Notes: generated from the sequence alone by a model not told the origin. Numbered from the whole stretch's first letter, positions 195 to 52,387 are shown. The stretch: 63,954 nucleotides of DNA, filler included, from Sanchytrium tribonematis (GCA_018985235.1; 5 parts of 5 records of this genome joined end to end with filler, not necessarily neighbours in it), one strand, 5' to 3'. A program made the numbers and translations.

Positions 195-1896
195 ATGAGC
201 TCGGATGAAGAAGTGTCTATTTTTGACCAGAGTGACATTATCGACTTGGAAAGTTTAACTCAAGAGGAATTATTTAAAATTGAGCAGGATGTATTCCAAG
301 CGATAGTTTTATTTAATCAAAACAAGTTCAACGATGCAATAAAAATGCTTGAAGTTAGAGCAAATCAAGATGGTATTTTTGCTGTTGCGGTAGGCTGTTT
401 ATTATTCATGAGAGCCATAAGTACTTTTAATAAGGACGACATAGATAAAGCGATGGCAGCGTTGGAATTGTCTATATCTGTTGCAAATGCACAAAACACC
501 AAACAATCTTATATTAGTAAATTCACGAGCGTCCTATTCAAGCAAGAAATGCACTGGATAACGGCTAGGTGTTCAACTATACAAAGTGAAGCAAATATGC
601 TTAGTTCATTTTTATTTATACTGCAAGAAAATATGACGGGCCTATTAAAAGCGGGACTTTTTCTAACTAAAGGTGTTAATGGTATAGAAGAAGTTTATAA
701 ATCAAAAGATGTGGAAATGGATCAAAATACTACAGGCGCAGTGAATTTTTGTTTTGGAGCAATCCAAGCGGTAACAGCGTTATTGCCTTCAAGAGTATTA
801 AAACTGATCAGTATATTCGGATATTCAACTAACAAAGATCTGGGATTTGATCTTATGCACCAATGTGAAAGCGGAACTAGTATCTATAAGGAGTTGGCAC
901 CAATTTTTCTTCTTGGTATTCATTGCATATTAATGAGTTTTGCACCCAACACTCAGCAGCCCAGCCAAGTCAAGGCCATGCAAGACAGATTAGATATCTG
1001 CTTATCAAAAAATCCTGATTCAGTATTTTATTTAATTATAAATTCAAGATTTTCAAGAGGGAAAAGAGATTTAAAAATGGCCGCATCAATTCTTCAAAAA
1101 GCCATTGACGTCCAAGACGAATGGATTGGTATTAAGCTCCTTAGTGAATTTGAACTTTGTATGACAAACCTTTTTTTACTTAAGTTTGAAGTAGTATTCT
1201 CAATGCTAGATAAGCTCCAAAAGGAGACTTTTTGGAGCAAAGCTTTCTTCACTTATTGGAAAGGGGCATGTTTAGACATGCAAGATGCTGATGGTATGGA
1301 GCATTATGCTGAATCCTTAACATTTATAACCAGAAAATTTGGGGGTAAGACAATTGCTATTGAGCAATTTGTAATGAAAAGGGTTCAGTTTTTCCAGACA
1401 ATCCCTCAAAAGATAAGAAGACTCTATCTTCCAGGACTAGAGATAGCATATCTCTTTTTGGGATTTTCTTTTATGGGAAAAGCGGAATTAGAAAAGGCAA
1501 TTGTTTTAATTGAAGAGTCTCTGGAAGCGTCAAAGGAAGTGACACACGATTGCAAATCTCATTTGATAAATCATTTGCAATTGCTGCATTGCAGCTGCGT
1601 GCGTAATATTAATTTCATCAATCAAAAATATGATCTTTCTAAACTGGTACTTCTCGAGGAAATTAATGACATAATTGATATGGACTGGCTGAAACCGTTT
1701 AGCGTGTTCGAGCAAGCTCAGACGTTTGTAGATGCCTATTTGCTGAAAAAAGACAAAATGTATCTGGAAAGGGCACAAACTTTGCTTTCAGAAACGGCTA
1801 ATTATAGCGGATATGTTTTGGAATTTCGGTAAAATTCACTAACACAGAGTCAATTTCAGAGTGCAAATGGTCCAAGATCAATTAAAACATTTCTAG
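195..1896 (+). CDS. TTC39/Iml2-family TPR protein; exons 195-1828 and 1848-1896
   Basis: Motifs WSKAFFTYWKG and GKTIAIEQFVMKR; removing the 19-nt intron gives the family-like C-terminus YVLEFRVNFRVQ. ATG 195 preferred over TTG 144. Confidence 0.8.
1829..1847 (+). other. 19-nt spliceosomal intron GTAAAATTCACTAACACAG
   Basis: GT-AG ends, CTAAC branch site; removes an in-frame TAA and restores the TTC39 C-terminus. Confidence 0.85.
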
Positions 1897-1944
1897 AATT
1901 ATTATATTGAGAATAAATATATTTGATATCCTAAGGGGAACACA

Positions 1945-4038
1945 ATGAAATCAAGGGATACTCTCTTAAAAATACAACGTAAATGGTGGGAACCGACTGA
2001 AGCTGGCGAATTTGGAAATATCAAAGAAGCAGAGCAATTATATAAGGAAGAAGTATACAAATTTGAAAAATTGAATAATGCGGGAAAAACGGATGAAAAA
2101 TATTTTAAACATATCGTAAAAGACGGTACATTCAATGACAAAATCACACTATTTTCGCATGCAATTCAAGAATCTCCGCTGCACAATCTTCAAAAATTTC
2201 AAGATTTGCTCAGTATGGCCGGGAAAAAAAATAGAGATCAAGTTAATCGATCGTTAGAGGCTCTTGTCACTATTTTTACTGCACAGGGTGATTACAGCAT
2301 ATTACCGAAAAGAAACTTGAGAGTATATCGCGCTTGTCTTGATATAAAACCAACTACTGGTCAGATTATTCAAGCATATTTTGAGGATAAGCTAAGAGAA
2401 ATATTTTTTGCAATGCTTCAAATTATAGAAGAGTGGCTCAAGGACAATGTCCAAAACTCTAAGCTCCGTATGCTTTCTTTTTTGTATTCTCTGGGGGTCT
2501 ACACCTTTGAACATTCTGAAAATATTATTCGTCTTGTTGCAAACAAGCTGGGTGATCCTGACAAAAAAGTTGCATCCAAGGCTGGTTACGTACTAATTAC
2601 AATCTCAAACGAAAAATCGGCTTTAAAATGGAGTGTCATACGAAATTTAAAGTCGCAAATTTCAAAAACAGATAATATTAATTGCAAGTCTGTCTCTCTA
2701 AATCACTTATCTCAGATAAAATTTAGCCTCAAAGACGACACAAAACTTTATTCAGATGTAATAACAATATATATGGAGATAATGGACGAAGTTATGGGTA
2801 TAAACCCAAATGTGATATCATTTGATGTCAAAGAAAAGGATAAGAAGAAGTTAAGAGTTCCCGATGAAGGACCTGAATTTAAGGTGATTCATTACTCTTT
2901 GACTGGGCTTAAGCGCGTTCTTCCTTACATTGAAAGTACTATGGAAAAAATCGATGACATTTCGAAAGATTTGAAAAAATATGAGAAGTTGCTTTTTTTA
3001 ATTAACCAGCATTCGCCGTCGACGTTAACTTGCTTCCAAACTTTGGGAGTATTAGTTCAATTCGGCCGGCTGATGCCCGAAATTAAGCAGAAGTTGAAAA
3101 AGGCTCTAATTGATATTACAATTGACGCAAAAATCTTCAACACAAAATATCTATCATTATACTTAGAAGTTCTCGAATCTTATTTAAATGATGCTCCCTC
3201 AGATTTGGTTTTGGAATTTGTTAGAGCTCTTTTGTCAATTTCAATCCATTTTGTTGACTCTAACGCAAAAATTCAAGTTCTAGAATTTGTTATCGATATG
3301 TTTAAAAAAGATTTGACCTTCTTCAAGCGCACAATTCCACCACCAAAAGCAAGCGTTCCTAATAGAGAAGATATTGAGAAATTGAATGAAGATTCTCTTC
3401 AATTACATCTCACTGTGAACGACGAACAAGAAATACTTTCTGATGTGCTTCTTTTTGAGATCACAGCTTTAATCAAAGATTACGACCCTTCTATGGCTAT
3501 CAAAATCAAGGAATTACTTTCATTGAACAAACGGTCGATCAGGGAAACTACAAAAAAAACAGAATTTGTAAAATCGGCACCAATTATGTTTTTAGATATT
3601 TTCACCAATAGAAAACAAAAGAAACGCAATGACAAAGGCCATAATGAACTTCAGAAAACTTTAATGTCAAAAAAGCCGTCGGAAATCCGGGTTGATGAAC
3701 TTTATTTATATGAATTCTTCAAAGATAAAAAACCAAAATTAGCCAAATCTAATGACGAAGATGTTGATGGCGAGTCGATTTTGAGTGCTGAAATTGAATT
3801 GCCGAGTGATTTGGACGACAAGGATCTTACTTTTTCATCCTCTGATTCAGAAGTATCTAATGATGAAATTATAGACCATGATATGGATGTTGATCCTTTT
3901 GAGAGACTGGAGGAATCTCTGGGTGATGATAATAAGAAGAAAAAGCGTAAGCTACCATTATTTATGACCCCAGAAGCAATTGAAGAGATAATTCACAAAA
4001 AGAAAAATGTAAAAAGATTAGATGTGACTAAATTTTAA
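1945..4038 (+). CDS. MAK21: Ribosome biogenesis protein Mak21/Noc1/CEBPZ
   Basis: GTFNDKI...ESPLHNL, YFEDKL, ANKLGDPDKKVASKA; acidic/basic C-tail. Confidence 0.85.
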   Translation: MKSRDTLLKIQRKWWEPTEAGEFGNIKEAEQLYKEEVYKFEKLNNAGKTDEKYFKHIVKDGTFNDKITLFSHAIQESPLHNLQKFQDLLSMAGKKNRDQVNRSLEALVTIFTAQGDYSILPKRNLRVYRACLDIKPTTGQIIQAYFEDKLREIFFAMLQIIEEWLKDNVQNSKLRMLSFLYSLGVYTFEHSENIIRLVANKLGDPDKKVASKAGYVLITISNEKSALKWSVIRNLKSQISKTDNINCKSVSLNHLSQIKFSLKDDTKLYSDVITIYMEIMDEVMGINPNVISFDVKEKDKKKLRVPDEGPEFKVIHYSLTGLKRVLPYIESTMEKIDDISKDLKKYEKLLFLINQHSPSTLTCFQTLGVLVQFGRLMPEIKQKLKKALIDITIDAKIFNTKYLSLYLEVLESYLNDAPSDLVLEFVRALLSISIHFVDSNAKIQVLEFVIDMFKKDLTFFKRTIPPPKASVPNREDIEKLNEDSLQLHLTVNDEQEILSDVLLFEITALIKDYDPSMAIKIKELLSLNKRSIRETTKKTEFVKSAPIMFLDIFTNRKQKKRNDKGHNELQKTLMSKKPSEIRVDELYLYEFFKDKKPKLAKSNDEDVDGESILSAEIELPSDLDDKDLTFSSSDSEVSNDEIIDHDMDVDPFERLEESLGDDNKKKKRKLPLFMTPEAIEEIIHKKKNVKRLDVTKF

Positions 4039-4600: not shown

Positions 4601-4649
4601 TTACGATAACGTGAAAAAAGGAGCAATTAATTGAAATAAATTTATTCAG

Positions 4650-10392: not shown

Positions 10393-12040
10393 ATGTCCAC
10401 CCAAGTCATACTCTACCAATTAAGTAGCTCTGTAGTATTAAAAAAGTCAAGCAGTATTGAAATTGGTCTCGATGTGCGATTGACTGACAAATCTACCCAA
10501 CAAGGACGAGTTTATCATGGAGTCATTGGTGTTATACATCTTGTTAATACTCATATATTTTTGATCAAAGAACATGTAAAGGTTGGACAGATCCGAAACT
10601 GTTCAATTTACAAAATTACAGCAATTGAAATTATTAATTGCACGAAATCTGAGTTGACTATGCAACAGTTGGAACAAGAAAAATATTGCTTGGAAGGGCT
10701 GAATATGGCCTTGCAAAATTTGTACTATTCGAATGAATATGACTTAACAATGCCGCTTCGCTTCAATACTAAAATAATATCTACTTTAAATCAAGGAAAT
10801 GTAAATGAGAATGTCAAAAATGATTTTTGGTTTAACTTTTATTTGCAACAACCCTTAAAAGAGCATTCTGAATTTAGATTAAAACTAATAAGTGGTTTTT
10901 TAGAAATTAAGTCTATTTCACTAAAGTCCCAAACAGTCACGAATCAGGGTGTCTTAGTTTTGATAAGTCGGAAATTTAACAAGCGCGGTGGAACAAGATA
11001 TCATAGCAGAGGGATTGATTCAGAGGGAAATGTTAGCAATTGTGTTGAAACCGAACAAATTGTTCTAATTGATAGAGAATGGCAGTCATTTCTACAAATC
11101 AGAGGAAGTATTCCATTATTTTGGAGGCATGTTGTCACGGGAACATATACACCAACACTCTTAATTCACGACCCAGCATCTGTTGAGACTAAAGAGGCAT
11201 ACTTACTGCATTTAAAATGGTTGGAGGATTATTACGGTAAACAAACGTTTGTAAATCTTGTAAATCAGAAAGGAAGTGAGCTTCAACTTGCTCAAGGATT
11301 TGCGAAACAACTGATCTATTCCCCACAGGTTCACTACGTGGCTTTTGATTTTCATAAGGAATGTTCCAAATTAAGATGGCACAGATTGTCAATTTTACTT
11401 GATCAAATCAAAAATGATTTGGACAAAAATATGTAATTTCTGTTAAATAAGGTATGATAGTCCTAGTTGTAAGCAGTCTGGAGTTATTCGAACAAATTGC
11501 ATAGATTGTTTAGATAGAACCAACGTGGTTCAGAGTAATATTGCTAAACACGTATTAGATGGATATTTAAAATCAAAAGGCATTACGGTGGAAGGAGATT
11601 TTGACTTTGTATTTAGAAACCTTTGGGCGGATAATGCAGACGCAGTTTCATTTTTATATAGCGGTACGGGAGCTTTGAAAACTGATTACACTCGAATGGG
11701 TGTTCGCACAAAGGTAGGAGCCTTACAAGATGGACAGAGGAGTGTCATTCGGTACATAAAAAACAATTTTCTAGATGGAGTTCGCCAAGATGGATACGAA
11801 CTAGCACTCGGAACTCCTTATTCTAAAGTTTCTATCCCAAAAAAGCCTTTAAAAGAAGTTGTATTTTATCTCTTTTTGACCGTTTTGATACAGTTTATAG
11901 TTGGCACTTCATCAATTTTGTCATTTATAGTTACAAATATACTCGTTTGGTCGTCAATCGTGTTTTCCGCAATTGCTTTTAATGGTAGGAAATTAGTTGA
12001 TTTGCCCAAATTAAAGCAAATTAAACAACATTTAAGCTAA
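10393..12040 (+). CDS. SAC1: Phosphoinositide phosphatase Sac1; exons 10393-11432 and 11452-12040
   Basis: GTRYHSRGID..GNVSNCVETEQ, RGSIPLFW; splicing restores catalytic RTNCIDCLDRTNVVQ; two C-terminal TM segments. Confidence 0.95.
11433..11451 (+). other. 19-nt spliceosomal intron GTAATTTCTGTTAAATAAG
   Basis: Joins the two Sac1 ORFs in frame and recovers the CX5R motif. Confidence 0.92.
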
Positions 12041-17354: not shown

Positions 17355-19266
17355 ATGAAACAACCTACGCACTATCAACAATTTATCAGTTTTGTCAATC
17401 AAAAACATGGCTTGTCAATCAAAGATAAAGACGATTTGTTTGCCTACTCTGTATCCAATTTCAAATTTTGGACGGATGTCGTTTTGTATACAAAATTGAA
17501 AACAAGCGGAAATATTGATCCAGTATTTTTACCAGACACTAAACTAGACTTAAACGGTAATCCGATTATGGATGAGTTTCCACATTGGTATCCCAATCTG
17601 AAAATAAGTTACGCTCAAAATATACTAGAACAAGACAATAAAGATAGGATTGCTTGTATTGGATACAGAGAGTCGGGACAATATCAATCGCTTACATTTA
17701 AAGAACTTTATGACCAGGTTTCCAAATGCCAACAAGCTTTATTGAAATTTGGAATCAAAAAAGGTGATATTGTATGTGCCTTGGCCCCAAATGCTCCTAT
17801 TGCTATTGTTTGGTTTCTAGCTGCCAATTCAATTGGTGCAATATTTTCTTCATGTAGTTGCGATTTTGGAATAACTGCAGTTGCTCAAAGATTTGCCCAG
17901 CTATCCCCAAAACTGTTTTTTAGTGTGAATTGTGTTCAGTACAACTCCAAATTTTATTCTCAAATTGAAAAACTCGCTGAATTAAAGTCTCAAATCAATT
18001 GTCCTTTCATTATTCATGAATTTATCGACGGAAAGCCTATGGGTGATTTTCAGTCATATGAAACTTTTGTAGATTCTTTCAGCCCGAAAGAAATTACTTT
18101 CGAACAACTTCCATTTCACTCTCCATTATATATTTTGTTTAGCAGTGGTACAACTGGTACTCCAAAGTGTATTGTTCATGGTTATGGCGCTTTGCTTCAA
18201 CACGTCAAAGAACATGTTATTCACCAAAATGCAACCAATGAAGATGTCATTTTACAATATACTACCACTGGATGGATGATGTGGCAATACATGGTTTCCT
18301 ATCTTTACTCTAGTACCATTATTTGCTATGATGGCAGTCCCTTCCATCCTGATCATGAACATTTATGGAAAATAATGAAAAAACATAATGTGACAATTTT
18401 TGGCACTTCTCCAAAATATTTGCAATCACTAAAAGACATGAAGTACACTACAAAAGAACATCAACTCAGACTCATGACTTCTACTGGCAGTCCATTGTCT
18501 ATTGAGCTTTATGGGTATATCCATTCTATTTCTGATGCTTACATAGGAAGCATGAGTGGCGGAACTGATATAGTTGCCTGTTTTATGGGTCCGTCTGTTG
18601 ATTTTGATGGTGTAGATGGAGAAATTCAGTCTTGCTTGGGAATGCATATTCAATGTATTAAAAACGGAAAACAAACTTATGATCAACCTGGTGAATTGGT
18701 TTGTGATAGAGTATTTCCATCCATGCCATTGTATTTCATGTTTGATCCTGATCACGTTAAATATAAAAAGTCGTATTTTAATGAGATTCCGCATGTTTGG
18801 GTCCATGGTGATTATATGCAAATGAGTTCTAAGACGCATGGAATTGTGATGATGGGTAGAAGCGATGGAACTTTAAAACCAGGTGGTGTCAGATTTGGCA
18901 GTAGTGATATATATGGCATTCTAGAGAAATTTAATTACATAGAAGATAGTGTGGCAGTAGGGCAACAATGGGAAGGTGATGAGAGAGTTTTATTGTTTAT
19001 CAAAATGAGAACGCAAGAACAATTGACAGACGACAGAATTAAAGAATTGAAAGTCAAGATTAGAACTGAATTGAGTGCCAGACATGTCCCTTCAATTTTT
19101 ATGGCCTGTCCCGATATTCCGGTAATTATTATTTATAAAGTATACCATGAATGGCAAGAAAGTAGAGTTAGCCGTGAAACATATCGTAAATGGAAGAGAG
19201 GTAAATGAAGAAACTGTGTCAAACAAAGAGTGCCTAGTGTGGTATCGAAATCTAAGTTGGAAATAA
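17355..19266 (+). CDS. AACS: Acetoacetyl-CoA synthetase; exons 17355-19121 and 19141-19266
   Basis: PLYILFSSGTTGTPKCIVH, TTTGWMMW, SMSGGTDI, GRSDGTLKPGGVRFGS; splicing restores DIPYTMNGKKVELAVK. Confidence 0.93.
19122..19140 (+). other. 19-nt spliceosomal intron GTAATTATTATTTATAAAG
   Basis: Restores the conserved catalytic-Lys motif P-YT-NGKK of AACS. Confidence 0.92.
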
Positions 19267-22799: not shown

Positions 22800-24039
22800 A
22801 TGATCATGTCACAACTCACACAAACTTGCCCTACTTACAATCAATTTGTAGAGATACCAAGAGGGTGCTTTGGATATCTACAACACACCAAAATTGCCAT
22901 GCTTCCTAATGGTGGTGAATTTGTGATTGGGAGGGGTCATCATTCAAGCCTTATTTTAAAGGATTTGATGGTAAGCAGAAAGCATTGCGTCGTTAAACAA
23001 GTTGATGGTAATGCATGTATATTTGTATTGGCAAAGATTTTACTTAATGAGATCCCTGTGCAACGAGGATTTTATTTGTTAAATAATTTGGATATGATAA
23101 GAATTGGACAACACTGTATAGTTTTTCATAGTGTCAATAAAGAGAGGATTGTTCAAGATCCAATATTAATGGATCACGAATACACAATTGGCAGAAATTT
23201 GGGTAGAGGTGGCTTTTCAGACGTTTTTTTAGGAATGAATCGAGACGGCAAATTATTTGCAGTTAAGATAACTGATAAAAGGGTATTTGAAAGACATTGC
23301 AATAGTAACGAACTAGAATATTCTAATTACGACCATCCAAATATTGCGAAAATCCAGACATTTATAGAGTCCACGAATTCTCATTTCTTCATTATGGATT
23401 ATTTTGGCCATGGTGACTTGTACACATTCATTAGAGACAAAAGACACCAATCTGAAGATGTTTTCAAATGGATTATGTACCAGCTTCTCAAATCTACAGC
23501 TTATTTGCATAAAATGAATATCGTTCATCGAGACATCAAACCAGAAAATGTGGTTATGGACTACACCACAGACTCAATTTTCGCTAAGTGCGCTCTTAGC
23601 GACTTTGGACTAGCCCAGGAATTGAAAGACTCTAATGACAGAATATCGGATACATCAGGTACATATCCTTACGTGCCTCCTGAACTTCTTAGAGGACAAG
23701 GACACACAGAGAAGTTTGATTGCTGGAGCCTTGGTATTGTGATGACACAGTTGTACTTTATGCTTATCTAGGTATTGCGATGAGGTAGTAATAGGTACAT
23801 ATGATACACAGACCTGGAAAAAGAAATTGAAACAAGGATCCCTTAAAATTCAAGATAAGGATTTGGAAAATGCCTCTGAACCCGCCCGTGATCTTATTTT
23901 AAAGCTTGCTGATCCAGAAGAAAAGAAAAGAATCTCATGCGAGGATGCTCTTAAACACCCTTGGTTTGCAGACTCTTTCTTCATGCTTGATTTTCTGTAT
24001 CGACACATTTGTCCTGTCCTTGGGGAAATGGAAGAATAA
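22800..24039 (+). CDS. FHA-domain Ser/Thr kinase (Chk2/Dun1/Mek1-like); exons 22800-23752 and 23772-24039
   Basis: FHA IGR...VSRKHC; kinase LGRGGFS, AVK, HRDIKPEN, DFG; spliced exon supplies ARDLILKL..PEEKKRISCEDALKHPWF. Confidence 0.85.
23753..23771 (+). other. 19-nt spliceosomal intron GTACTTTATGCTTATCTAG
   Basis: Joins kinase subdomain IX to X-XI in frame. Confidence 0.88.
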
Positions 24040-24058: not shown

Positions 24059-26341
24059 TTAAAATTTTAGTAAGTCGTCCAGCTCGTCCTCTACAGTTCT
24101 AGTTGGTGGGCTGGGTTTTTGTTTCGCAGGCTGGTTTTGTAAAGGTTGAGCCGGTTGAAATGAAAAAGGATCAGGCTGAACAACACTAGCGGACTTTGAT
24201 TGTGAAGTCGGGACTACCTGAGGCTGTGGCGGTGGGCTTTGTGCAAATGAAAAAGGGTCTTGTTGAACATTAGCTGGTTTTGCTTTGTAATTTGATTGTT
24301 GTGCAGAGGGTTCCTGTTGAGGAATAAATTGGGCAATAGGAGGTGGTTGGCCAAATTGTGTTGGTGAAGGTGGATTAGAATTATTTTGCGAGGAGATCGG
24401 TCGCGCACTAGAATTCGATTTTGCAGGTGGCTCATAAGACTCTTGTGATTGCAAAGGTAGATCGGGCGATTTTGTTTTTTTGAATGTTTTTCTCTCTGGA
24501 GATTTGTAGTCATCTTCAACTTCTTTGACACTCCCTGTACCAGTTGTATTCACCTCCATACTATCACTAACTGTATTACTACTTGGGCCCCTATTGGCTT
24601 TTAATTTGATCATGTTATCAATTTCAACTTGTTTAGACTCCGGAGTCTCTGAGGCACTTTCGTATGGTGGGATTTCTTGCACCTCATCCATTATCGAAAC
24701 CTTTTTTTGCATCGGGGATGTTATATCACCTAAAGGCGGTGCACTATTTGGATAAGCAGCCTTTGCTTCTTTTAAAAAATCTCGGGGATGTTGACCATTC
24801 TCATCTTGGTGTTGCCTTGCTAATTTCTCAGCAAAAAGTCTATGCATATGGTCTGGAAATTCGCTAGCATCCTCGACATCACAAATTCGTTCAGCCAATT
24901 TCTTTCTGTATATTAAAATTCCCTCGTTATCATTAATTTCTGATTCCTTGGTTCCATCCGTAACCAACCAGGATTTCCAGTCTTCGATCAAATTTGGTAA
25001 TAAATGAGGAACATATTGTCTTGCCATAAGACAGGCTTCAGCGTACAAATTGCTTGATTGCAAAATAATGCAACAAACCTCATACTCTTTCAAGAGAAAT
25101 GCTGCATTAAAAGCGACATTATATTTCTTTAAAGATTTGCACATTTTAATTAGATTTTGAAGACCACTCGTATTATTTTGACAGCTGTAAAATAAAAGCA
25201 AATGATCCACGTCATTACCGAGCAACAAGCAGCGTTCCGCAACTTCAAATTCCCAGTTTTGTAAAGCGATCTGACTCAGCAATTTGTATTTTTCCTCGCT
25301 TGGATCCAACTCACACATCTGTAAAGCAACATTCAGTCGTTTTAAATGAATAGCCAAGTCAAATTTGTGTTGGATATCTTGTGATATGTCCAAAGCTAGT
25401 TCATGCTTGTTCAAACCTTCCAAAAATCTTGCAAGTTTGTTTTTATAAGGCTCAGTTAGCTGGCTGGTATCTGCTTCATTGCTTACAACAAATTTTAATA
25501 AAATTTGTATATAATTTAAAGGCAAGTTGAAGCCATAAAATTGGTCTTTGTGCAGTAAATAAATGACATCGTTTTGGTAGCCTACAAGATAGCCCTGTTG
25601 TGTAGTGATGGCCATATTTATGTCTTTTATGACATAATTTAATTTGTTTTGTTTCGTAGTGTAAATGAGGCAATTTTCAACAAATAGAGCACTAGTTACG
25701 GCATCACTGTTTTGGTAAATTACGGAAAACGCTTGTTCAACCCCATCCTCGGGTAAACTTCCAGTGTTGACCGCATTAATGTATTGTTGTTGATGGTATT
25801 GTAATATAAATAGTTTGTCAGAAGTACAAATTGCGACTATAGTACCTGAAGGATTCCACTTAATTTGTTTCGCAACGCATTCTATTCGACGAACAATATA
25901 ACCAGAGCTGAAGTCATAAAACATCAAATGATACTTAGATTGAACACCTAATAAAGGGCCACTGAATAAACCTTCAACATTGTTCACAGCTGGATTCAAC
26001 CCGCACTTCAACTTGAATCCTTTATCTAATATTTGAACACCTAAATTAGTATAATCTACCTTCAGAATGTTTAACAGCGCATTCATTATCATATGACCAG
26101 GCAAACAAATCAGCAGGCCCGAATGCTTTATTTCTCCATGCCAAGGCAGTATAAATAATATACTGCCCATCTCCTACGACCACTGCAAACCTTCCGTTGG
26201 GTGAATGCTCAATAAAACTAGGATAAATTTCACATGTTCCCAATTCCTTCTTTTGCAAGAATAAAATATCACCATCCTTGCAATTTTCTGCGCTAAGCAT
26301 GTATTGATAAACATCAAAATGCTTATTTACAAGCAATTTAC
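24059..26341 (-). CDS. SEC27: Coatomer beta-prime subunit, 5'-truncated; intron 26041-26059
   Basis: KELGTCEIYP..HSPNGRFAVVVGDGQYIIYTALAWRNKAFG, HKFDLAI; Pro/Gln-rich tail. Confidence 0.93.
26041..26059 (-). other. 19-nt spliceosomal intron GTAGATTATACTAATTTAG
   Basis: Joins the two Sec27 frames (HSEG-VQILDKGF); CTAAT branch site. Confidence 0.9.
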
Positions 26342-26510: not shown

Positions 26511-27616
26511 ATGTCAGTTTTTTACAAATTTACAAGCGCGAAATCTTACAATAAAATTGCTTGCGATGGTTTATCGATAGATATCATAACACTGAAACAG
26601 GAAATTGCCAGTAAATTGCATCTAAAAGGATATTCTACAGATTTTGATCTTTTGGTTTCTAACGAAGAAGACGAACCTTACTCTGAATTGGATAAGGTTC
26701 CGAGAAATGCAAAGATTTTGTTGAAAAGAGTTCCGATAACAAATAAACAAAAAGTTCATGCTCAACCTGCTCAGCCAGTTCAGTCTACATCAGGCTACAT
26801 ACCAGGAACCAATGTTACAACCAATCAACTAGAATCGCTGCTCTCAACCATACCTGGTCTGAACCAAAACAACGAGAAATCTGAGGAAATGACTGAGGAT
26901 CAAAAGTTGGCGGAAATGTTCAAAGAAGCAGACGAAGCGAATAAACGCGCAGGTCCCCAGCAAAGTCAAGCAAAACGCATGAAAGGCGAATTGCCACCAC
27001 CAAACTATGTATGTTATAAATGCGGCCTAAGAAATCACTGGATCTATGATTGTCCAAATGCAGTGGACGACGGATCCACTCCAAAACGGATCCAAAGAGC
27101 CACAGGGATCCCAAAGTCGATGCTGAACGTTATAGATAAGGTTCCTGTAAATGGCATTCAGAATTTACAACAATCTAGCGCCACAGGTGAATTAATGGTG
27201 ACAGGTGACGGTAATTGCCTGTTAATATAGGATCAGTGGTTCAGGTAATTACAGATGATTCGGCTCTTGCAAATTTGCAAGGCCCTACAGTATCTACTGA
27301 TCAGCTTTATGAACAACTATCGAAAGAAAACTTTCCAGCCATTTGGAAATGTGTATTTTGCTTTAAGGTGGCTCGAAATTGTATGAAGCTACCTTGCACT
27401 CATAATACTTGTGAAGTTTGTTTAAATGAAGCAGTTGAAAAAGCGAAATTGGAATGTCCGAAATGTCATAAACCGCTCCGACTAGATCAATGTAAAGCTA
27501 ATCACGAAATTAGAAAAGCCATTATGACAAAACTAAAGCGTATGGTCAAAACAACAGAAGAAGTTATAAATCCTCCCTCGCGTGGAAAGCCAGCTCCATC
27601 CAGCGTGAGACGATAA
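26511..27616 (+). CDS. MPE1: Mpe1/RBBP6 (DWNN, Zn knuckle, RING); exons 26511-27210 and 27231-27616
   Basis: MSVFYKF DWNN domain, PPPNYVCYKCG..HWIYDCP, ATGIPKS; RING/U-box-like Cys pattern in exon 2. Confidence 0.9.
27211..27230 (+). other. 20-nt spliceosomal intron GTAATTGCCTGTTAATATAG
   Basis: Links MVTGDG to SVVQ in frame with the RING exon. Confidence 0.85.
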
Positions 27617-29106: not shown

Positions 29107-30181
29107 TTATTTGTCAAAGATTGGCATCTGCAAAGCTTCTTTGGCGGAGACACGTTCATTAGGTAAAACTGTCAGGAGTGCACTTAATAATTCAAACAAA
29201 TCATCCGACCAATTACAATTTGGATTAAGTGCTAAAACTGCAGATTTCCAACCCATTCCATAATCAGGGTCAATATGTGGTGTTCTTATATCTACAAATC
29301 TTCCTGAATTAACAAAAATTACCAATCTGGCTTGCAAGCTCTTTTATCGGCTTCACACCAGTTATAGTAGCAATTTCTAATAAAGCCTCATCATCGGTAG
29401 TACTATTGAAAAATGGATATCTTTGTGCCAAAATGCAAAGGAGTATAACGCCTACGGACCAGACATCAATCTTTGTAGTTTGATATTGCCATCGTAGTAA
29501 AACTTCAGGAGCTCTAAATCCACGGGTTCCAGCTCTATCAGCCCTTAAAGAAGGCCTTGATTCTGTTTCATCAATATACACGATCTCATTATTGACATCA
29601 TAAAGACTCGGTTCTTTAGTGATTGTAGGTTTTTTCCTCTTCTTGGTTGTTTCATCGATTTGAGCTAATCCAAAATCAGCCAAACAACCTGTTTTTGCTT
29701 TAATATTGTACAGAAAATTGCTTGGTTTTATATCTCTATGTATAACGAGATGATGATGAATGCTCCTCAGAGCTGTTAATAAATTAAACATATACATTTT
29801 GACCATTTTAGAATTCATTCTTTTGTAAAAACTTTTAAATTCGTGAAACTTCACAAATGGCATGATTACTGAGGTTTGATCTTGAAATCTATAAAAATCA
29901 ATGATATCAATCACATTTGGAAGGTTTCTGAGTTTAAACATGAATTCTAATTCGCGCATGATTCTTCTTTCATCTGATTGTTGGTATATGCACTTAACTG
30001 CGAGATATTTAGAATCAACTGCTGCAGCATAACTAGGATTTTTTACAAATTTATAATCTCCATTTGGATTTATGGGCAATGACTGATATACAGCAGCAAA
30101 TGTGCCTTCCCCGACCTTCTTTAACAGCTTTACACCTGGTGGTTTATGATGGCAAGCTTCAGCAAACCCAACAAAAGTCAT
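29107..30181 (-). CDS. CDC7: Cdc7 kinase; exons 30181-29323 and 29303-29107
   Basis: VGEGTFAAVY, HRDIKPSNFLY, LADFGLAQ, RADRAGTRGFRAPEVL, QTTKIDVWSVG, RYPFFNS. Confidence 0.92.
29304..29322 (-). other. 19-nt spliceosomal intron GTAATTTTTGTTAATTCAG
   Basis: Joins Cdc7 to its terminal exon carrying PNERVSAKEALQMP. Confidence 0.9.
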
Positions 30182-34548: not shown

Positions 34549-35788
34549 ATGGGGAAGGAGAATTTTGATAAAGGATTTGGTACTAACGATTCCTTTAACA
34601 GATCACCATATCCTAAAAGAATTAGGAAAAAGAGAGATTTGAGTTTTGCAGAGGAGAAAACTAGAGAAACGATGAATTTAAAAATTTTATCAAAAACACA
34701 TGCGGAAATTAAAAATCATAAAATGAAGCCATTCAAGCTGTCTCAAATCGAAATCAAACAGCTAAAAGAAGTTGTTTTTGGGAGTCACAAACGCTCCATT
34801 CCGGCCAGTTGGAAAAATAAGGGTTTTGAAATCAATCGATATTGCACATTCGGATTTATGCAAAAAAGGGGTGGTCCTTGTACGGTTTTGGCAAGTATAA
34901 ATGCTTTCCTGATCAAGCATTTGTTGTTTTCAGAGTTTCAAGATTTTGATTGTTTAGTTGAAGAATCTATACCACTTTTAAAGCCTTCTGAAGAACAAGT
35001 CTACCGAGCTTTTTCGTACGCCCTTACAGAAATTCTCTGGAAATGTGCGAGCAACACAAGAGTTGTAAAGCTTTGTGTTTTTAATGACACTCAAACTGAA
35101 ATATCGAAATGTGACGGAATTACCGAATATATGCAAATTTTTCAATTTAAATGTAAAGACAATCTCGAGGAAATGAGAGATTGTGCCAATTTTATTTTTG
35201 ACAATATTGAAATATTTAAAGGAAACACAATAAGGAATTCCTCTCATGCAATACTGGCGACACTATATAGTTGCATATTAACCAGAGGGTTTGATCAAAT
35301 TATGAGAGATGTATCCTGTAATTTGCCGCTAATCGATAATGACGAAAATGCATTTGGAAGTCAGAGTGTTGTCAATTTAATGTTGGTGGGAGAGGCAATT
35401 ATTGACACACTTGATCATGAACAGGCTAGCATTATCGGAATGCAAGGTATAAAATACAGGAGTGAAATTGGATTTATGACTCCAATAGCGGAAATGGTTG
35501 GGAATAGATTGATGAATCCCAAACACCCCATTTGGATTCTTCATTTTGATAGTCATTACACAGTTATGTTTAAACCCTCGAGTAACAGCAACGTTTACAC
35601 GTATTATGATATGCTAGCGCTAAAAAATAGTCTATATTATTTTGAATTAAAAGATGGTGGTATTTTATTTTTATTTAGAGGCTAAGACTCTCACTGAAGC
35701 TTTGAAAGATGACAAGATGAATGAAGACACCATTCAGTTATGTTGCCTTATGAAATGGCCAGGGCAAACTGTCGAATACCTCAGTTGA
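34549..35788 (+). CDS. MINDY3/4-family deubiquitinase; exons 34549-35659 and 35679-35788
   Basis: QKRGGPCTVLAS (catalytic Cys), PIWI...SHYTVMF (His); splicing restores LCCLMKWPG C-terminus. Confidence 0.85.
35660..35678 (+). other. 19-nt spliceosomal intron GTATTTTATTTTTATTTAG
   Basis: Restores the MINDY terminal KWP motif. Confidence 0.85.
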
Positions 35789-35803
35789 TTCACTCAAAAT
35801 AAA

Positions 35804-36374: not shown

Positions 36375-37785
36375 ATGTCAACAAGACAGGCTGTCAAAAG
36401 AAAACCAATTGTTTTAGACACCTTCGTTCCAACAGAATTACCAACCAACGCGATTGAATCTCATAACAAGCAAGAAAATATTAAACTGAGAATGCCAAGC
36501 TCACAAACAATACCCATAAATAATTTGAAGAAAGTTCCAGAGCTTAAACCTAATTTAATGAATCATGTTAAAAATTCAAGCAATTCTTTAGATGTTACCT
36601 CTTTGGAAGTTCATGGGATCCCCCAACAGTCAAGTAGGAAAGCTACGATTTCAAGCATCGATGATGAATTTCATGACACCTCATCTTTGGAATCACCTAA
36701 GCGGCAGGGATTTATGAACACAATTAAAGCAAAAGGAAGGGTTAGAGAATTAAATAGAAAAATGTCAATATATGATCCTAAAAACGAAACGAAATCCTAC
36801 AGACATGAAGTGGCATCTGCTTTGCTAGAGAAAAAGACAGATAGTGATGAGTACTTTAGAATGAGGGACGAACTTCAAAAAAAAGAAAATGAATTAAGGC
36901 GTCTAAGGGAGAAAATTTCCATCTTAGAAAATGGAAATGCTGTCAAGAATGAAACAAATTACAAAGTAGCATGTTCTATTTTGAAAGAGTTGATAAAAGT
37001 CCAAACTGGCCAAATTCCTATGGAGGAATCGGATTTAATCAACGATTTTCTCTCATCCATTCCTAACCACTCACGAGATCATTGTGAGAACAATTTAGAC
37101 ACCGAAGCAGAATATAAGCAAATTATAAAAGAGTTATTTTTTGTATTAAGACAGGCGATTCAAAAGAATTTGCTTTTAAATGATCATTTGAATCAACTAG
37201 GACTAGGTCTTCCAAATACAATAATACAAAAAAATGCCCTGTCACAATTAGTTGCAAAATATGAAAATCTATTTAACTCTGAAGAAGACGAGCCTACCAT
37301 TGAATTACCGATTGAAAATATAGAAGAGAGTATTAAAAAGCAGTTGGAGTCTATTGAATGTGAGAAATGGGATCGAGAAGCAACTAATCGCGAAATAATT
37401 TCTGAATATACAGTAATTTCGATTCATGTAGAGTAAATTCAAGCAAATTATTGATTGCTTATTAAAGTCGCGTCAAGATTCTAAAGTTGAATTAAAAATA
37501 ATTGAGGATTCTGAGCTTTCGACTGACGACACAATGATAGAGTCTCAACATCGCAACATTATTGAGAAAGTGACGTCTGAAGATCTGTATAAGTTAGATT
37601 TTTCAATTATAGCAAACTCCGTCGCCGCATTGGATTCAAATCAATGTCAACTTCAAGATGTAGAGGCCGATGACTCAAAATTTTTGAAGGACAAGGTTAA
37701 ATTAGATAGCCACAACTCGTTTGGGCTTACAGATTTGCCTTCCATCTCATTAGATATCGACTTCAGTAGTTTGACATTCGAGTAA
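36375..37785 (+). CDS. Hypothetical coiled-coil protein; exons 36375-37412 and 37432-37785
   Basis: Two ORFs joined in frame by a 19-nt intron; start uncertain. Confidence 0.65.
37413..37431 (+). other. 19-nt spliceosomal intron GTAATTTCGATTCATGTAG
   Basis: Fits the consensus (A-6, T-8) and opens the frame through to 37785. Confidence 0.75.
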
Positions 37786-46502: not shown

Positions 46503-46580
46503 GGCATTTCAATAAAAAATTTTGGAACCAATAAAACACGTCTCAAACGGCATGAAAATAGCCTCACATCTGAAGATCTA

Positions 46581-47269: not shown

Positions 47270-50200
47270 ATGATTGAGGAAGAAATTCTTCTTGAAGAAC
47301 AAAATTACGATACATATATAGAGATAGACATAGATACCCCATTAGAAATCGAGTTTACAAACGAGAAGCCCAAAGAAAAGCAAAAAATTTTAGCCAAGTT
47401 TAAAAAAGCTGAATTTGAGTATCTCGATCAATATGCTATAGCAGAAAAATCAACTGAATTTGTAAGACCAAGGCACTTGATAATGGGCTCTGTTGTAACT
47501 GAGTATACCTATGACATGGACATTTTGGACACAGAGTATTTGAATGCACTCCGCCAATTGAAAATGCATATTGACAAAAGAGATTTTCAAATTCTAATGA
47601 AAAAATTTGATCTTGAATGGCATTATTTAACAAAAGACTTGATAAGAGCGCATCAGCCAGATAATCCTTGTCAGATTTGCATGTCTAACGAGGTCCACCA
47701 CAATTCTAATGCAATCGTCTACTGCGATAGTTGCAATTTGACAGCGCACCAAGACTGCTATGGTATACCTTATATATGCGATGGGCCCTTTTTCTGTCGC
47801 AAGTGTATTTTAGACCCAAGAGGGAACCCAAAATGTGTTTTTTGTAATCAATCCGGAGGCCCAATGAAACGAACCAAACAGAATAATTGGGGACATGTTA
47901 TATGTGCATTTTTTTTACCCGAAGTTTATTTTGCAAACGATGTATATTTGGAACCTATTGACGGTGTAAAGAAAATTCAAAAGGATCGATGGAGGTTAAT
48001 CTGTACTATCTGTAAACAGAAAGGAGCTTGTATTCAATGTTATAAGAAGGGATGCTTTACAGCAATGCATGTATATTGTGCACAAAAAGAAGGGTACTGT
48101 CTTAGATTTCCTGGTCAGTGTGAACCAAGCGAGAACTTTTGCGGGTACTGCAGCAAACATACTCCTGAAAATTGGAAAGCAACTAATTTGAAGCTGAGTC
48201 TCAGCAATTCCTTAGACAATAACCCAATACCACAGGACTTGGCGAAAAACCCCGTTATGCCTGAGAAAGGCTTTGTAAATGCTACAAAGAATTTAAATAT
48301 ACCCGAAAAAGAGAAATACGCGCTCGTAAAGTACTGGTCTATGAAAAGATCTCACAAGGGAACAGCTCTTGTGAGGCAACTGGAGCACGAACCTCGCAAT
48401 ATCAGTCCTAAAGATCGGCAAAAGGTAGAAGATTTAAAAAGCGAATTAGAAACATTGAGAAAGTATTTGCATAGTATTAAACAAGAGTCACAAATTGAAC
48501 TCTCTTTGTTTCGAAACTACTTCAGAATATGGCAATTGATAATTAAACCGAAGCACCAAATGATCTCTCAGGCTGTTGAACGATTAAAAGGACTGGACCC
48601 TCAGCACATCTTTGCTACAAAAGTGAGTGATGATGTGCCACAATATTACGATATTATTAAAAATCCGATGGATTTTGAATCAATGGAGCTAAAACTTCAA
48701 TATTCAAAATACAAAACGTACGAAGATTTTGAGATAGATGTTCAACATATTTGGAAAAATGCCCAAATTTATAATTCCCCGGAAAGTATTTACTATGCTG
48801 CTGCTGAAGATTTGAGACTTGGGTCGCTAGAAATATTGCAGGAGGTCAAAAACAAGTGGCAACAGCTTCCAATTAATATGGAAACAGAATTACTTACCAA
48901 TTACAAGGATCTTGATAACAGTAAACTTGTGAAACTGTTGGAAATAGCTCGTAATATACTTGGTGGCAAATCAGATAAAGAAATTGTGTTAGATGATGAA
49001 ATATTTGCCGACGTTCCAAATAGACAATTCAATGTTACACCAGAAGGACTCCGACCTTTAGTATTGCGAAATAGTGTTAAAATTAGTCCACCAAAGAAAA
49101 GGAAAGCTGATGTGTTAGAAACCGTTGTTCGGTCTCCAAAGCCGAGAAAATCTAAATCTATGCAAGTCAGCATCATTTCTGAAAATTCAACTTCCAGGCG
49201 AAAAACGAGGTCGCGAGCAAATTCTCCTGAAAAAGAATTTTCTTCTATTAGAGTCACAAGGTCACGAAAAGCAAGCCTGGAAAGCCTTGAAGTTGCTACA
49301 AATGCAGTCGCGACTCCAGTTTCTAAAAGTAACTTGAGCAAAATTCAAAAGCAGATACTTCAAGACGTCTTCTCTAGCTCTCCAAGTCCTAAGAAAAAAA
49401 ATTATCAAATAGAGGAACAAGATGGCGATAATACTGGACAACAGTCTGATATCAGTGTACCTTCAGACTTTTCTATACTTTCAAATGCTGAAGACACTCA
49501 AAGGGTAAGAAAATCAAAAAGAATAAATTCTAAGAGCGTCGAATTAACCACTAGGCGAAGTACTAGAACCAAAACAAAGAAAGCAAATCAAACGAAAAAG
49601 AAGAAAAGTCTATCAAATATATCAGAAAGCATTAATCGAAAATTATCGGAACTTGATGAGATTATAAATAGCACTGAATCTAAAATCATAGACAATGTGT
49701 TGCGAAGAGCTAGTGCTGAAAAGAGGAAATCAAAAAAGCAAAAGAAAAATTCTTTAAAAATTGATACTGACTTTGATTTTAATGATGAAGTTCTTAGCAC
49801 CCCAAAACGAATGGACAGGGTAATTGTTACACGTCCGGGAACCCCAGAGGATGTACTTTTACCGCTAAAAAGATCACCAAAATATCCAGTAACAAATGAA
49901 GCCAATCGTTCGAAATCGAATGATTCTTCTAAAGACATCGGCAAAGTTGCAATAACATGGAAGCTGAATGATATATGTTGGGCCAAGGTTGTTGGCTTTC
50001 CATATTATCCCGCAAAAGTGCAAAAACCAAATTTAAATGAAATTAAATCAAAAAAGGGAGACCAAATTTATGTTCAATTCTACGATTCTAAAAACTACTA
50101 GTATTTCTTATTTATTAAGTGGTTGGGTCGACTCGTCCAGTATTAAGCCTCTGGGTGGCAAAAACATTGATAATTCTACATTCAAAGGCCAAAAGTACTC

Positions 50201-50288: not shown

Positions 50289-50322
50289 CTGAAGTGAAAT
50301 AAATCTGGTATTTTTGATACAT

Positions 50323-51036
50323 ATGGAGACTGTTTTGCTTGGTGGATTGCAAATTAATTTATATTACAGCAGTGAAAGCAGTAGCATGCTCATTCTGATG
50401 CTACACGGTAGACTTGGGAAACATCAAGATGTTGAGTTTCTGGCTAAAGCTTTAGTTGATTTTGATCCAAGATATACAGTCGCAACTTTTGATTTACAAA
50501 ATCACGGGACACGTTCAATTGATCAATCCAGGAATGAAGATTGGAAAGCTGGAAATATGACACACCACTTAGACATGTTGTCTTGCCAACTAGGAACGAT
50601 TCGAGATTGCCAAACAATAATAGATCTTATACCCTTGTACAAGCCCAGATTCAACAAATTTGGTGTTTGTGGAGTTAGTCTGGGTGGTCATGTTGCATTG
50701 ATGCTAACTGGAATAGACTCCAGAATATCATTTTGTATTTCATTTATTGGGTCTTTGAATCAAACCAAATTGATGAAAGGTCGCAAAATCGGAGGTGTTC
50801 ATTTTTCGACATATTATTTAGATTTGATGAAGCAATTCAATCCTTTTAATACCCTTAGATCGTCTTCGGTGCCTATATTAATGCTCAATGGATCCCAGGA
50901 TACTTTGGTTCCCTCTTCAACTAATGAAGATCATCATTTATTTAATATTGATTATTTTGAGTTTCCTTTTGGTCATACAGTGAAAAAGCCAATGGTTGAA
51001 AAATGTCTGAGTTGGATTGCTGAAATGAATTTTTGA
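50323..51036 (+). CDS. Alpha/beta hydrolase
   Basis: LHGRLG, FDLQNHGTR, GVSLGGH nucleophile elbow, GSQDTLVP, GH. Confidence 0.88.
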   Translation: METVLLGGLQINLYYSSESSSMLILMLHGRLGKHQDVEFLAKALVDFDPRYTVATFDLQNHGTRSIDQSRNEDWKAGNMTHHLDMLSCQLGTIRDCQTIIDLIPLYKPRFNKFGVCGVSLGGHVALMLTGIDSRISFCISFIGSLNQTKLMKGRKIGGVHFSTYYLDLMKQFNPFNTLRSSSVPILMLNGSQDTLVPSSTNEDHHLFNIDYFEFPFGHTVKKPMVEKCLSWIAEMNF

Positions 51037-51216
51037 AACAAAGGAACTGTAACTTTTATTTTAAGGAACTTGATGTAATATAAATTTTACATTAGCATTA
51101 CTGAAAGCTAAAATCTTTACACTTTTTGAATACTGGGCATAAACGTTAGCTGCCAAGATTTTACGTTTTCGACGTTTTCTGGGTATAATCATATTTTGAA
51201 AATGTATTGAAACAAA

Positions 51217-52387
51217 ATGTATTTATTTTTACTTTCTGCTGTATTTTCTAAAGTGTTTATGGGTTATTATACCAATTGGTCGGGTCTACCGGTCTCTTCC
51301 ATACCTTGGTATTTAACTCATTTGTCTTACGCTTTTGCCCAAGTGGGACCTGATGGGACAGTGTCCAATTTTGACCCTGTGGATGTAGGCAATCCAAGTG
51401 GATGTAATGCGGGTGGATTGTACTATGAAATTTATAAGTTGAAACAGACTAGGCCGTGGTTGAAAAACATTTTGTCAATTGGAGGTTGGACATTTAGGGA
51501 CACGTTCTACCCTGTGATGAGTGATCCCGTCAAGCGAGCCAAATTTGTGAGTAGTTCAATTACTCTTGCAATGAATTATGGTTTTGACGGTAATTTATTT
51601 TAATTTAGGTCTAGATGTAGATTGGGAATATCCCAATAGTTTGCAAGAAGGATCATTTTACGTGACCATGATGAAAGATTTAAGGAAAGCGTTAGATTTT
51701 GCTGGTCTAAGGGATGGAAAACATTACATTTTGACATCTGCAATTCCTGCTAGTCAGTACCTCTTGAATAACTTCTTATTGGAACAATCACGAAAGTATG
51801 TTGACTGGTTTAATTTGATGGCTTACGATGCATCTGTAGGGACTAGTGCTGCGGTGAACCAAAGTCCTTTGTATAAAAATCCAAATGATCCTACGGGGTC
51901 AAGCTCGAGTGAAGTTATCAACTATATGCGAGCTAAAGGTGTGAACAGAAATCAAATCGTATTAGGCATACCGTTATATGCACACCAATACAATGTAGCA
52001 CCAAATGATCCTAAAAATGGACTGTTTAGTCCAAAAACTTCTAGTACAGATTCTTGGATTACCAACAAAGACATTGTAAGTTTATTGAATACTGGTAAAT
52101 ATAAGCAATTTTATGACGGTACTTCTCAAGTTCCATATCTCTATAATTCACAAGATGGCTTATTTGTGACATATGACAACGTACAATCGGTGACTGCCAA
52201 AGTGAAATATACAAATTACAAAAAATTAAGAGGCATTTTCTTTTGGGAGATTAATCAAGATTTTTTGACAGATCAATTAGAAGTCGCCGTATTGCCACAC
52301 GCACAGGAAACAATCTCGGGACTTACTTATTGGCCTGCTACAAAACTCTGCTCACCGACATCTATTTATTGTAATATAAAATGTTAA
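51217..52387 (+). CDS. Secreted GH18 chitinase; exons 51217-51589 and 51609-52387
   Basis: Signal peptide, THLSYAFA, SIGGWT; splicing gives FDGLDVDWEYP; NLMAYD, FFWE. Confidence 0.94.
51590..51608 (+). other. 19-nt spliceosomal intron GTAATTTATTTTAATTTAG
   Basis: Splits the GH18 catalytic DxxDxDxE motif; removal restores it exactly. Confidence 0.93.

What the first reader, a model, noticed from the sequence alone, without database searches (positions are those of the whole stretch)
1829..51608. A genome running on fixed-length 19-nt spliceosomal introns
Seen: 11 genes on four independent contigs are split by GT-AG segments. Ten are 19 nt (1829, 11433, 19122, 23753, 26041-, 29304-, 35660, 37413, 50101, 51590) and one is 20 nt (27211). 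Excision restores hallmark motifs: Sac1 CX5R, GH18 DxxDxDxE, AACS PYTxNGKK, the PWWP end and kinase subdomain XI. Known: introns this small are reported from chlorarachniophyte nucleomorphs (18-21 nt), heterotrich ciliates (15-16 nt) and a few other reduced lineages; typical fungal introns are much longer. Inference: a flagellated fungus-like nucleus has independently evolved a near-minimal, length-measuring splicing system. Standard gene predictors would mis-annotate these genes as frameshifts.
Basis: partly seen in the sequence, partly recalled or inferred. Interest (0 to 1): 0.92.

Follow-up and report, generated by a model that had tools for sequence, protein, structure and literature searches.

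The report
19-base introns in sanchytrid fungi
Eleven genes in this compact genome, which likely belongs to a close relative of the alga-parasitising fungus Amoeboradix, are each interrupted by a 19- or 20-base segment with splice-type signals; these are likely true introns, which would be shorter than any fungal intron found in the papers searched and would be missed by the intron-blind gene predictions published for this group.

Summary
All 11 GT-AG segments are where stated (ten 19 nt, one 20 nt). They also share an unreported signal: Y-T-N-A, with the A six bases from the 3' end, in 11 of 11, against 16 of 312 other GT-AG 19-mers. In unconstrained deletion scans the 19-nt GT-AG cut ties for best in AACS, chitinase and Sac1 (against its close relative); COPB2 is ambiguous. 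Sac1 places the organism with Amoeboradix gromovi (Sanchytriomycota; 73% identity; others 33-39% at like coverage). Two relatives' Sac1 ORFs, one from A. gromovi, end in tails that back-translate to the same 19-nt pattern if the stop is TAG. Best reading: ordinary major-spliceosome introns eroded to a size floor, about 0.3 per gene and mostly in 3' halves. Splicing of RNA is untested and an active length ruler is not shown. Tiny fixed-length introns are known from nucleomorphs, Stentor and Mikrocytos. I found no report for sanchytrids, whose published annotation ignored introns, and none below 22 nt in fungi or microsporidia. The scan earlier noted 25-32-nt Rozella introns, nothing on sanchytrids.

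The parts
1829..1847 (+). 19-nt phase-2 intron near the 3' end of an Iml2/TTC39 gene (about 195-1896); adds a 16-aa last exon
   Evidence: consensus and frame rescue only; weakest site (rank 183 of 3,915)
11433..11451 (+). 19-nt phase-2 intron in Sac1 phosphatase (10393-12040); exon 2 holds the CX5R motif
   Evidence: colinear without a gap with uninterrupted A. gromovi P0172; two ENA relatives break at the same place
19122..19140 (+). 19-nt phase-0 intron in acetoacetyl-CoA synthetase (17355-19266)
   Evidence: joint best of 1,718 unconstrained deletions against an HMM of 149 homologues (755.2 bits; unspliced 701.9)
23753..23771 (+). 19-nt phase-2 intron in an FHA-domain kinase (22800-24039)
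   Evidence: Pkinase 1-188 in exon 1 and 221-263 in exon 2; only short GTA+branch candidate
26041..26059 (-). 19-nt phase-1 intron in coatomer beta' (COPB2; 5'-partial, 26341-24059)
   Evidence: best GT-AG (386.2) but a 16-nt GT-AG scores 385.6 and a non-GT-AG 16-nt cut 391.1; only the 19-mer has GTA and the branch motif
27211..27230 (+). 20-nt phase-1 intron in an MPE1/RBBP6-like gene (26511-27616); the extra base lies 5' of the branch A
   Evidence: DWNN and zinc knuckle in exon 1, RING in exon 2
29304..29322 (-). 19-nt phase-1 intron in CDC7 kinase (30181-29107)
   Evidence: exon 2 supplies Pkinase 227-263
35660..35678 (+). 19-nt phase-1 intron in a MINDY-3/4 deubiquitinase (34549-35788)
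   Evidence: model 1-292 of 344 in exon 1; exon 2 had no Pfam or PDB hit
37413..37431 (+). 19-nt phase-0 intron in a gene with no Pfam family (36375-37785)
   Evidence: consensus and frame rescue only
50101..50119 (+). 19-nt phase-2 intron inside the PWWP domain of a BRPF/BRD1-like gene (47270-50288)
   Evidence: PWWP match stops at model position 49 of 93, exactly at the donor; exon 2 alone had no relevant hit
51590..51608 (+). 19-nt phase-1 intron inside the GH18 chitinase DxxDxDxE motif (51217-52387)
   Evidence: model 107 | 109; joint best of 1,234 deletions; uninterrupted 59-60% relatives P0006 and P0007 are colinear

Best explanation
The eleven GT...AG segments of 19-20 bases are likely ordinary major (U2-type) spliceosomal introns of a probable sanchytrid fungus, predicted to branch at the conserved A six bases from the 3' end and likely shrunk to near the smallest size the spliceosome can hold.

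Shown: the donor GTA(A/T)TTT, a U-rich middle, Y-T-N-A-(T) with A at -6, the first AG after it as acceptor, frame rescue, and colinearity with uninterrupted homologues.

Inferred: U1/U6 pair with GTA, and U2 pairs with the YTNA motif and bulges the A. The lariat would have a 14-nt loop (15 in the 20-mer) and a 5-nt tail, too short to need Slu7 or Prp18. Deletion bias erodes introns until the donor-to-branch distance reaches a steric floor, which gives the near-uniform length without a separate ruler. Retention of any of them shifts the frame or meets a stop, so unspliced RNA would be visible to decay.
For: - Branch motif in 11 of 11 versus 16 of 312; acceptor is the first AG after it in 11 of 11.
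- Deletion scans with no GT-AG requirement put the 19-nt GT-AG cut at the top score, tied with slid cuts: AACS (1,718 candidates) and GH18 (1,234), and Sac1 against A. gromovi (616).
- Relatives: ENA P0171 and P0173 ORFs stop at the Sac1 junction. P0173 ends S-Y-F-E-L-M-stop, and A. gromovi P0172 ends G-Y-L-K-F-M-stop at another site. Both read like the window's own phase-2 intron (Y-F-M-L-I-stop) and imply 19 nt with Y-9, T-8, A-6 if the stop is TAG. Only these 2 of 290 held proteins end so; 8 of 7,397 stops in the window's six frames do.
- A. gromovi's published annotation lists PRP8, BRR2, SF3B1, U2AF1, U2AF2, BBP, U1-70K, PRP5, PRP22 and PRP43. It has no row for SLU7 or PRP18, factors dispensable at short branch-to-acceptor distance (PMC10158995 and PMC10711555, passages).
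- No hairpin: intron-alone folding energy 0 to -0.9 kcal/mol.
Against: - Excision from RNA and the branch position are untested.
- GT-AG spacing alone gives no 19-nt peak.
- With distant homologues the best unconstrained cut was a non-GT-AG 16-mer for COPB2 (391.1 versus 386.2) and for Sac1 (495.7 versus 493.7); only Sac1 was resolved, by a close relative.
- IML2 and 37413 lack homology support, and exon 2 of BRPF and MINDY found no relevant hit.
- The relatives' tails come from proteins, not DNA: the stop codon is unknown, and the Y in P0172 also matches the exon residue.
- Absence of SLU7/PRP18 rests on an annotation covering about half of the intron-blind ORFs of a relative.
- No snRNA lies in the window, and no whole genome was held.
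- n = 11, so the tails of the length distribution are unknown.
Confidence: 0.83

Rival explanations
1. The introns are spliceosomal, but length itself is an actively measured signal: the spliceosome counts about 13 nt from donor to branch A and rejects longer or shorter substrates.
For: 10 of 11 are exactly 19 nt with the branch A at position 14. With the same consensus no other length from 13 to 60 nt is clearly in excess, including stop-free 18 and 21 nt. The donor carries little beyond GTA and T-richness.
Against: A 20-mer is tolerated, and an explicit branch motif plus first-AG choice accounts for the 3' end. Erosion to a floor predicts the same spike (PMC10245619, passages). Nothing here measures rejection of longer introns.
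Confidence: 0.25
2. The segments are decayed or rarely spliced relics, or assembly errors, so the genes mostly yield truncated products or are pseudogenes.
For: Microsporidian tiny introns are spliced inefficiently (median 25%; PMC4435813, passages). 9 of 11 lie in the 3' half, where retention might cost less. Contig 5 holds LRR genes with a real nonsense codon and a frameshift.
Against: Several interrupt catalytic cores of conserved genes (Sac1 CX5R, GH18, CDC7, COPB2) whose downstream exons stay open and conserved. Errors would not share a branch motif or recur at the same Sac1 site in relatives 67-73% identical. Contigs of run X1 show no gap across the 6 of 11 sites laid; X1 may be the window's own source, so this checks the assembly only.
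Confidence: 0.06
3. The segments are removed by something other than the spliceosome: Ire1- or tRNA-type cutting of hairpins, DNA-level excision, or ribosomal bypassing.
For: Their size is close to HAC1-type unconventional introns (recalled, no call).
Against: GT-AG ends and a U2-type branch motif in 11 of 11; no stable fold (z from +1.1 to -2.6 with flanks, only one below -2); all three phases occur; the ten 19-mers are all different (8-17 of 19 positions identical). The relative keeps a spliceosome.
Confidence: 0.03

Closest known systems
Heterotrich ciliate (Stentor coeruleus) 15-16-nt introns (PMC9505925, passages)
   Same: GU...AG, GUA start, AU-rich, branch A at a fixed place leaving a 5-nt 3' tail; the longer class adds its base 5' of the A.
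   Different: Here 19-20 nt (14-15-nt loop versus 10-11) with a clear Y-T-N-A motif. Stentor introns are 5'-biased; here 9 of 11 lie in the 3' half. Different supergroup.
Chlorarachniophyte nucleomorph 18-21-nt introns (PMC10245619 and PMC2483917, passages)
   Same: Same size, '19 nt' in Bigelowiella natans; compact genome.
   Different: The nucleomorph is a relic endosymbiont nucleus and intron-rich (more than 800 in about 300 genes). This is a main nucleus with about 0.3 introns per gene.
Mikrocytos mackini 16-17-nt introns (PMC10245619, passages)
   Same: Parasite; few introns; one dominant length plus a +1 class.
   Different: Mikrocytid introns are sequence-conserved throughout and the spliceosome is cut to 17-19 proteins. 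Here the sequences vary and the relative keeps U1-70K, BBP and U2AF.
Microsporidian introns (E. cuniculi 22-76 nt; PMC3629993, passages) and Rozella (25-32 nt per unchecked scan notes)
   Same: Holomycotan parasites with short GT-AG introns that shift the frame or contain stops.
   Different: Longer and more variable; microsporidia have a few dozen introns, often 5' in ribosomal protein genes. Separate lineage from sanchytrids.
Myxobolid and dicyemid introns, median 22-27 nt (PMC13644364, parts 1-2 of 3)
   Same: Parasitic opisthokonts; donor reduced to GTa.
   Different: Longer. Their putative branch A moves away from the AG as introns lengthen; here it stays at -6 (one 20-mer only).
Blastocladiella emersonii introns, 55-333 nt (PMC2773782, passages)
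   Same: Sister phylum of sanchytrids (PMC8371127); GT-AG with a CTAAC-like branch site.
   Different: Three to four times longer at the mode, which suggests shrinkage on the sanchytrid stem (inference).

Membership tests
U2-type spliceosomal intron | GT...AG ends | tested here: met
   11 of 11
U2-type spliceosomal intron | Branch-point motif (YTNAY-like) near the 3' end | tested here: met
   Y-9, T-8, A-6 in 11 of 11 versus 16 of 312; sequence conservation only, no lariat data
U2-type spliceosomal intron | Excision gives a protein colinear with uninterrupted homologues | tested here: met
   Met for AACS, GH18 and Sac1; length ambiguous for COPB2; the other 7 were not scanned
U2-type spliceosomal intron | Removed from pre-mRNA through a lariat | not testable with these tools
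   Needs cDNA, RNA-seq or lariat sequencing
U2-type spliceosomal intron | Major spliceosome encoded in the organism | tested here: inconclusive
   No genome held; no snRNA in the window. The relative A. gromovi's annotation lists core proteins
U12-type (minor) intron | Strict [GA]TATCCTT donor and TCCTTAAC branch site (consensus recalled, no call) | tested here: not met
   Column counts show GTA(A/T)TTT and YTNAT
Constrained tiny-intron class (heterotrich, nucleomorph, mikrocytid type) | Length 21 nt or less in a 1-4-nt range | tested here: met
   10 x 19 nt and 1 x 20 nt; no clear excess at other lengths 13-60; window only
Constrained tiny-intron class (heterotrich, nucleomorph, mikrocytid type) | The range holds genome-wide | not testable with these tools
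   No whole genome; relatives' tails P0172 and P0173 are indirect support
Mikrocytid-type intron | Highly conserved sequence along the whole intron | tested here: not met
   10 distinct 19-mers, mean 12.8 of 19 positions identical
Sanchytriomycota (placement of the organism) | Groups with a named sanchytrid in protein trees | tested here: met
   Sac1: window, A. gromovi and two ENA proteins form one branch, SH-aLRT 100, quick tree of 29 rows chosen from 120 listed hits, long branch. Nearest named chitinase is also A. gromovi (43%). One tree only; species not determined

The most novel reading that the evidence does not exclude
The whole phylum Sanchytriomycota uses a 19-nt intron class, the shortest modal intron among fungi and animals, with roughly two thousand unannotated introns per genome. 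They are biased to the 3' half of genes and still turning over between species. They are spliced by a spliceosome that kept U1-70K, BBP and U2AF but dropped Slu7 and Prp18, so that the branch A plus five bases defines the acceptor.
Probability: 0.5. Interest if true: 0.86.

Novelty: new member of a known kind. Interest (0 to 1): 0.74.

Why it matters
It would add a new, independent origin of near-minimal spliceosomal introns, and the first below 22 nt that I found for a fungus. It also converges on Stentor's geometry (branch A, 5-nt tail), which bears on the open question of what sets the lower size limit of an intron. The sister phylum has 55-333-nt introns, so before and after can be compared.

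Practically, the published sanchytrid proteomes were predicted without introns. At about 0.3 introns per gene many entries would be truncated or split, as seen for A. gromovi Sac1 and possibly BBP. Gene-loss inventories for this phylum therefore deserve a re-check.

Tried and rejected
- No whole genome was held.
- The look-up of sequencing runs: no RNA holder listed.
- Raw GT-AG length spectrum against 60 shuffles: no peak at 19; too little power.
- Rfam (E up to 0.5) and ARAGORN: nothing in the window.
- Search for relatives' DNA: metagenome scan with ERCC6 gave one distant locus, L001 at 37%, not studied. The Sac1 alignment found nothing in genome contigs or viral contigs.
- COPB2 'longer' search: only 3 homologues, at 31-34%.
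- Hidden in-frame introns: 9 stop-free 3n candidates with GTA and the branch motif. Five translate to residues that look coding: the two in Sac1 and the one in CDC7 align with homologues; those in cyclophilin and SNF2 lie inside Pfam domains in recalled motifs. Four (8632, 36966, 60091, 62474) could not be tested.
- A 22-nt candidate at 52371 was rejected: relatives end the chitinase at the same place without splicing.
- Three extra 19-nt pattern hits: 25261+ and 29367+ are antisense to genes; 5094- rescues no ORF.
- GC-AG donors of 17-23 nt: 10 listed; none looked convincing by eye, none tested further.
- PDB searches with exon 2 of BRPF and MINDY found nothing.
- Hairpin-type excision rejected.
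- The careful Sac1 tree did not finish; the quick tree was used.
- Literature search was swamped and uninformative.
Full report
1. Observation. The window joins five contigs of 11-13 kb with N-spacers; GC is 34.9%, and about 38 genes cover about 94% of contigs 1-4 (approximate gene bounds). All 11 segments are present as described, ten of 19 nt and one of 20 nt, all GT...AG and all starting GTA. Internal GC is 14%. Without excision the frame stops within 0-28 codons; with it the frame runs 16-660 codons further. All three phases occur.

2. More than chance? Counting GT-AG pairs by length gave no peak at 19. The acceptor is the first AG after that A in 11 of 11. With this pattern there are 13 hits at 19 nt against 2.6 expected. 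That number is circular, but the useful part is that no other length from 13 to 60 nt exceeds 6 hits (2.1-3.0 expected). A leave-one-contig-out matrix ranked 10 of 11 in the top 19 of about 4,000 pairs per contig, IML2 at 183. An exhaustive scan found 934 frame-rescuing GT-AG pairs, 83 with T-8/A-6. Nine stop-free in-frame candidates were checked for the bias against seeing 3n introns: five look coding and four are untestable.

3. Homology. I scored every frame-restoring deletion of 1-70 nt near the junction, with no GT-AG requirement. The 19-nt GT-AG cut tied for best in AACS (1,718 candidates, HMM of 149 homologues) and GH18 (1,234). For Sac1 an HMM of 101 distant homologues preferred a non-GT-AG 16-mer by 2 bits, but against the close uninterrupted relative P0172 the 19-nt cut tied for best of 616 and aligned without a gap. 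COPB2 stayed ambiguous: 19-nt GT-AG 386.2, 16-nt GT-AG 385.6, best unconstrained 391.1, on four homologues. Pfam and PDB show that exon 2 completes both kinases and supplies the RING of MPE1, and that the PWWP and MINDY matches stop at or near the donor. Exon 2 of BRPF and MINDY gave no relevant hit. IML2 and 37413 have no homology test.

4. Organism. Sac1 exon 1 is 73% identical to Amoeboradix gromovi EP00835_P001089 and 67-73% to two unnamed ENA proteins. The other listed hits are 33-39%, apart from one at 47% over half the query. These four form one long branch with SH-aLRT 100 in a quick tree of 29 rows picked from 120 listed hits; the tree does not itself place that branch inside fungi. 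The nearest named chitinase is also A. gromovi, and the top named AACS hits are fungal. GC near 35% fits published sanchytrid values. So the organism is likely a sanchytrid other than A. gromovi; the species was not determined.

5. Relatives. Both ENA Sac1 ORFs stop at the window's junction. P0173 ends S-Y-F-E-L-M-stop, and A. gromovi's ORF, intact at that site, ends G-Y-L-K-F-M-stop at a site where the window has no intron. A 19-nt phase-2 intron of this consensus reads through as Y-x-x-(F/L)-(I/M)-stop, as the window's own kinase intron does. Only these 2 of 290 held proteins end so, and 8 of 7,397 stops in the window's six frames. Intron positions differ between relatives, and the chitinase intron is absent from 59-60% relatives, so gain or loss has occurred within the group.

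6. Mechanism. The signals are those of U2-type introns squeezed together: donor, about 7 U-rich bases, branch motif, 5-nt tail. A lariat would have a 14-nt loop, and the 20-mer adds its base upstream of the A, as in Stentor (PMC9505925, passages). The A. gromovi sheet of the published eggNOG table lists PRP8, BRR2, SF3B1, U2AF1, U2AF2, BBP, U1-70K, PRP5, PRP22 and PRP43; a debranching enzyme appears in the second species' sheet, which was cut short in storage. No row matched SLU7, PRP18 or U1C (ids partly recalled; only about half of the ORFs are annotated). Slu7 is unnecessary at a branch-to-acceptor distance of 9 nt or less (PMC10158995, passage), and Prp18 has been described as imposing a minimum distance (PMC10711555, passage), so their loss would fit. 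It is a lead, not a result. I favour erosion to a steric floor (model in PMC10245619, passage) over an active ruler, because sequence signals already explain the 3' end; the data cannot exclude a ruler. Nine of 11 introns lie in the 3' half (COPB2 placed by homologue at 0.48; one-sided p=0.03), and the inferred A. gromovi site is at 0.85. This is opposite to the 5' bias reported for Stentor, yeast and microsporidia, and is unexplained.

7. Known and new. Tiny narrow-range introns are described from nucleomorphs (18-21 nt), heterotrichs (15-16), mikrocytids (16-17), Paramecium (20-33), E. cuniculi (22-76) and myxobolids (median 22), so the kind is known. For sanchytrids I found no description. 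Searches returned 8, 1, 9, 3 listed and 0 papers. Of these I opened PMC8371127 and PMC10459994 (passages); in both 'intron' occurs only in a reference title, and the preprint has no 'intron', 'splic' or 'exon'. The rest were seen as listings only. The genomes were annotated with TransDecoder on contigs (section 18 read). The main supplementary PDF and one spreadsheet were too large to read and one PDF had no text; these and subscription papers could mention introns. Searches showed no fungal intron class under 22 nt in the listings or in the passages read (PMC8476143, PMC2483917, PMC3629993, PMC4435813, PMC5381614, PMC2773782; PMC13644364 parts 1-2 of 3).

8. Verdict. Observation confirmed; spliceosomal introns very likely; RNA evidence outstanding. 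A new member of a known kind, in a kingdom where I found no case this small. A rough extrapolation from 0.22 introns per coding kb gives about two thousand per 10-Mb genome (inference). Interest 0.74.

Noticed in passing
window 13248-13756 (-): A well-conserved outer-arm dynein light chain 1 (DNAL1; E=1e-52 to a solved DNAL1 chain), although sanchytrids are reported to lack axonemal dyneins (PMC8371127, passage). It may be a retained light chain outside the paper's list.
   Followed up: partly
window 16481-17221 (-): Blh-type beta-carotene 15,15'-dioxygenase (PF15461, E=9e-11). The sanchytrid paper reports the carotenoid oxygenase missing and retinal taken from the host; this enzyme could make retinal from host carotene.
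   Followed up: no
window 53496-58391 (+): Intact 1,631-codon ORF with reverse transcriptase and RNase H domains, likely a non-LTR retrotransposon, among LRR genes.
   Followed up: no
window 52592-53517, 58777-60215, 60196-61917 (+): Cluster of paralogous LRR genes on contig 5. One has an in-frame stop at about 53008-53010 and one a frameshift near 59600; neither break is a GT-AG intron of this kind. This contig has no tiny intron.
   Followed up: partly
window 8446-9384 (+), 9371-10357 (-), 20351-21241 (-), 30763-33813 (+), 35804-36367 (-): Long ORFs with no Pfam family; 20351-21241 looks secreted, with a Pro/Thr-rich tail.
   Followed up: no
window 4601-5206: About 600 nt between genes in an otherwise very dense genome; only short ORFs and no Rfam hit.
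   Followed up: partly
window 39538-52491: X1 contigs differ from the window by scattered substitutions on this contig (33 listed places) but hardly at all on 26442-39437; this may reflect heterozygosity or mixed strains.
   Followed up: no
PMC8371127 supplement file 4, A. gromovi rows 1135-1136: The branch-point-binding protein is annotated as two adjacent ORFs on one contig, as an unannotated intron would cause.
   Followed up: no
window 37791-39437 (+) and 26511-27616 (+): A WD40-cyclophilin (PPWD1-like, a spliceosome-associated protein; name recalled) and an MPE1-like 3'-processing factor are in the window.
   Followed up: no
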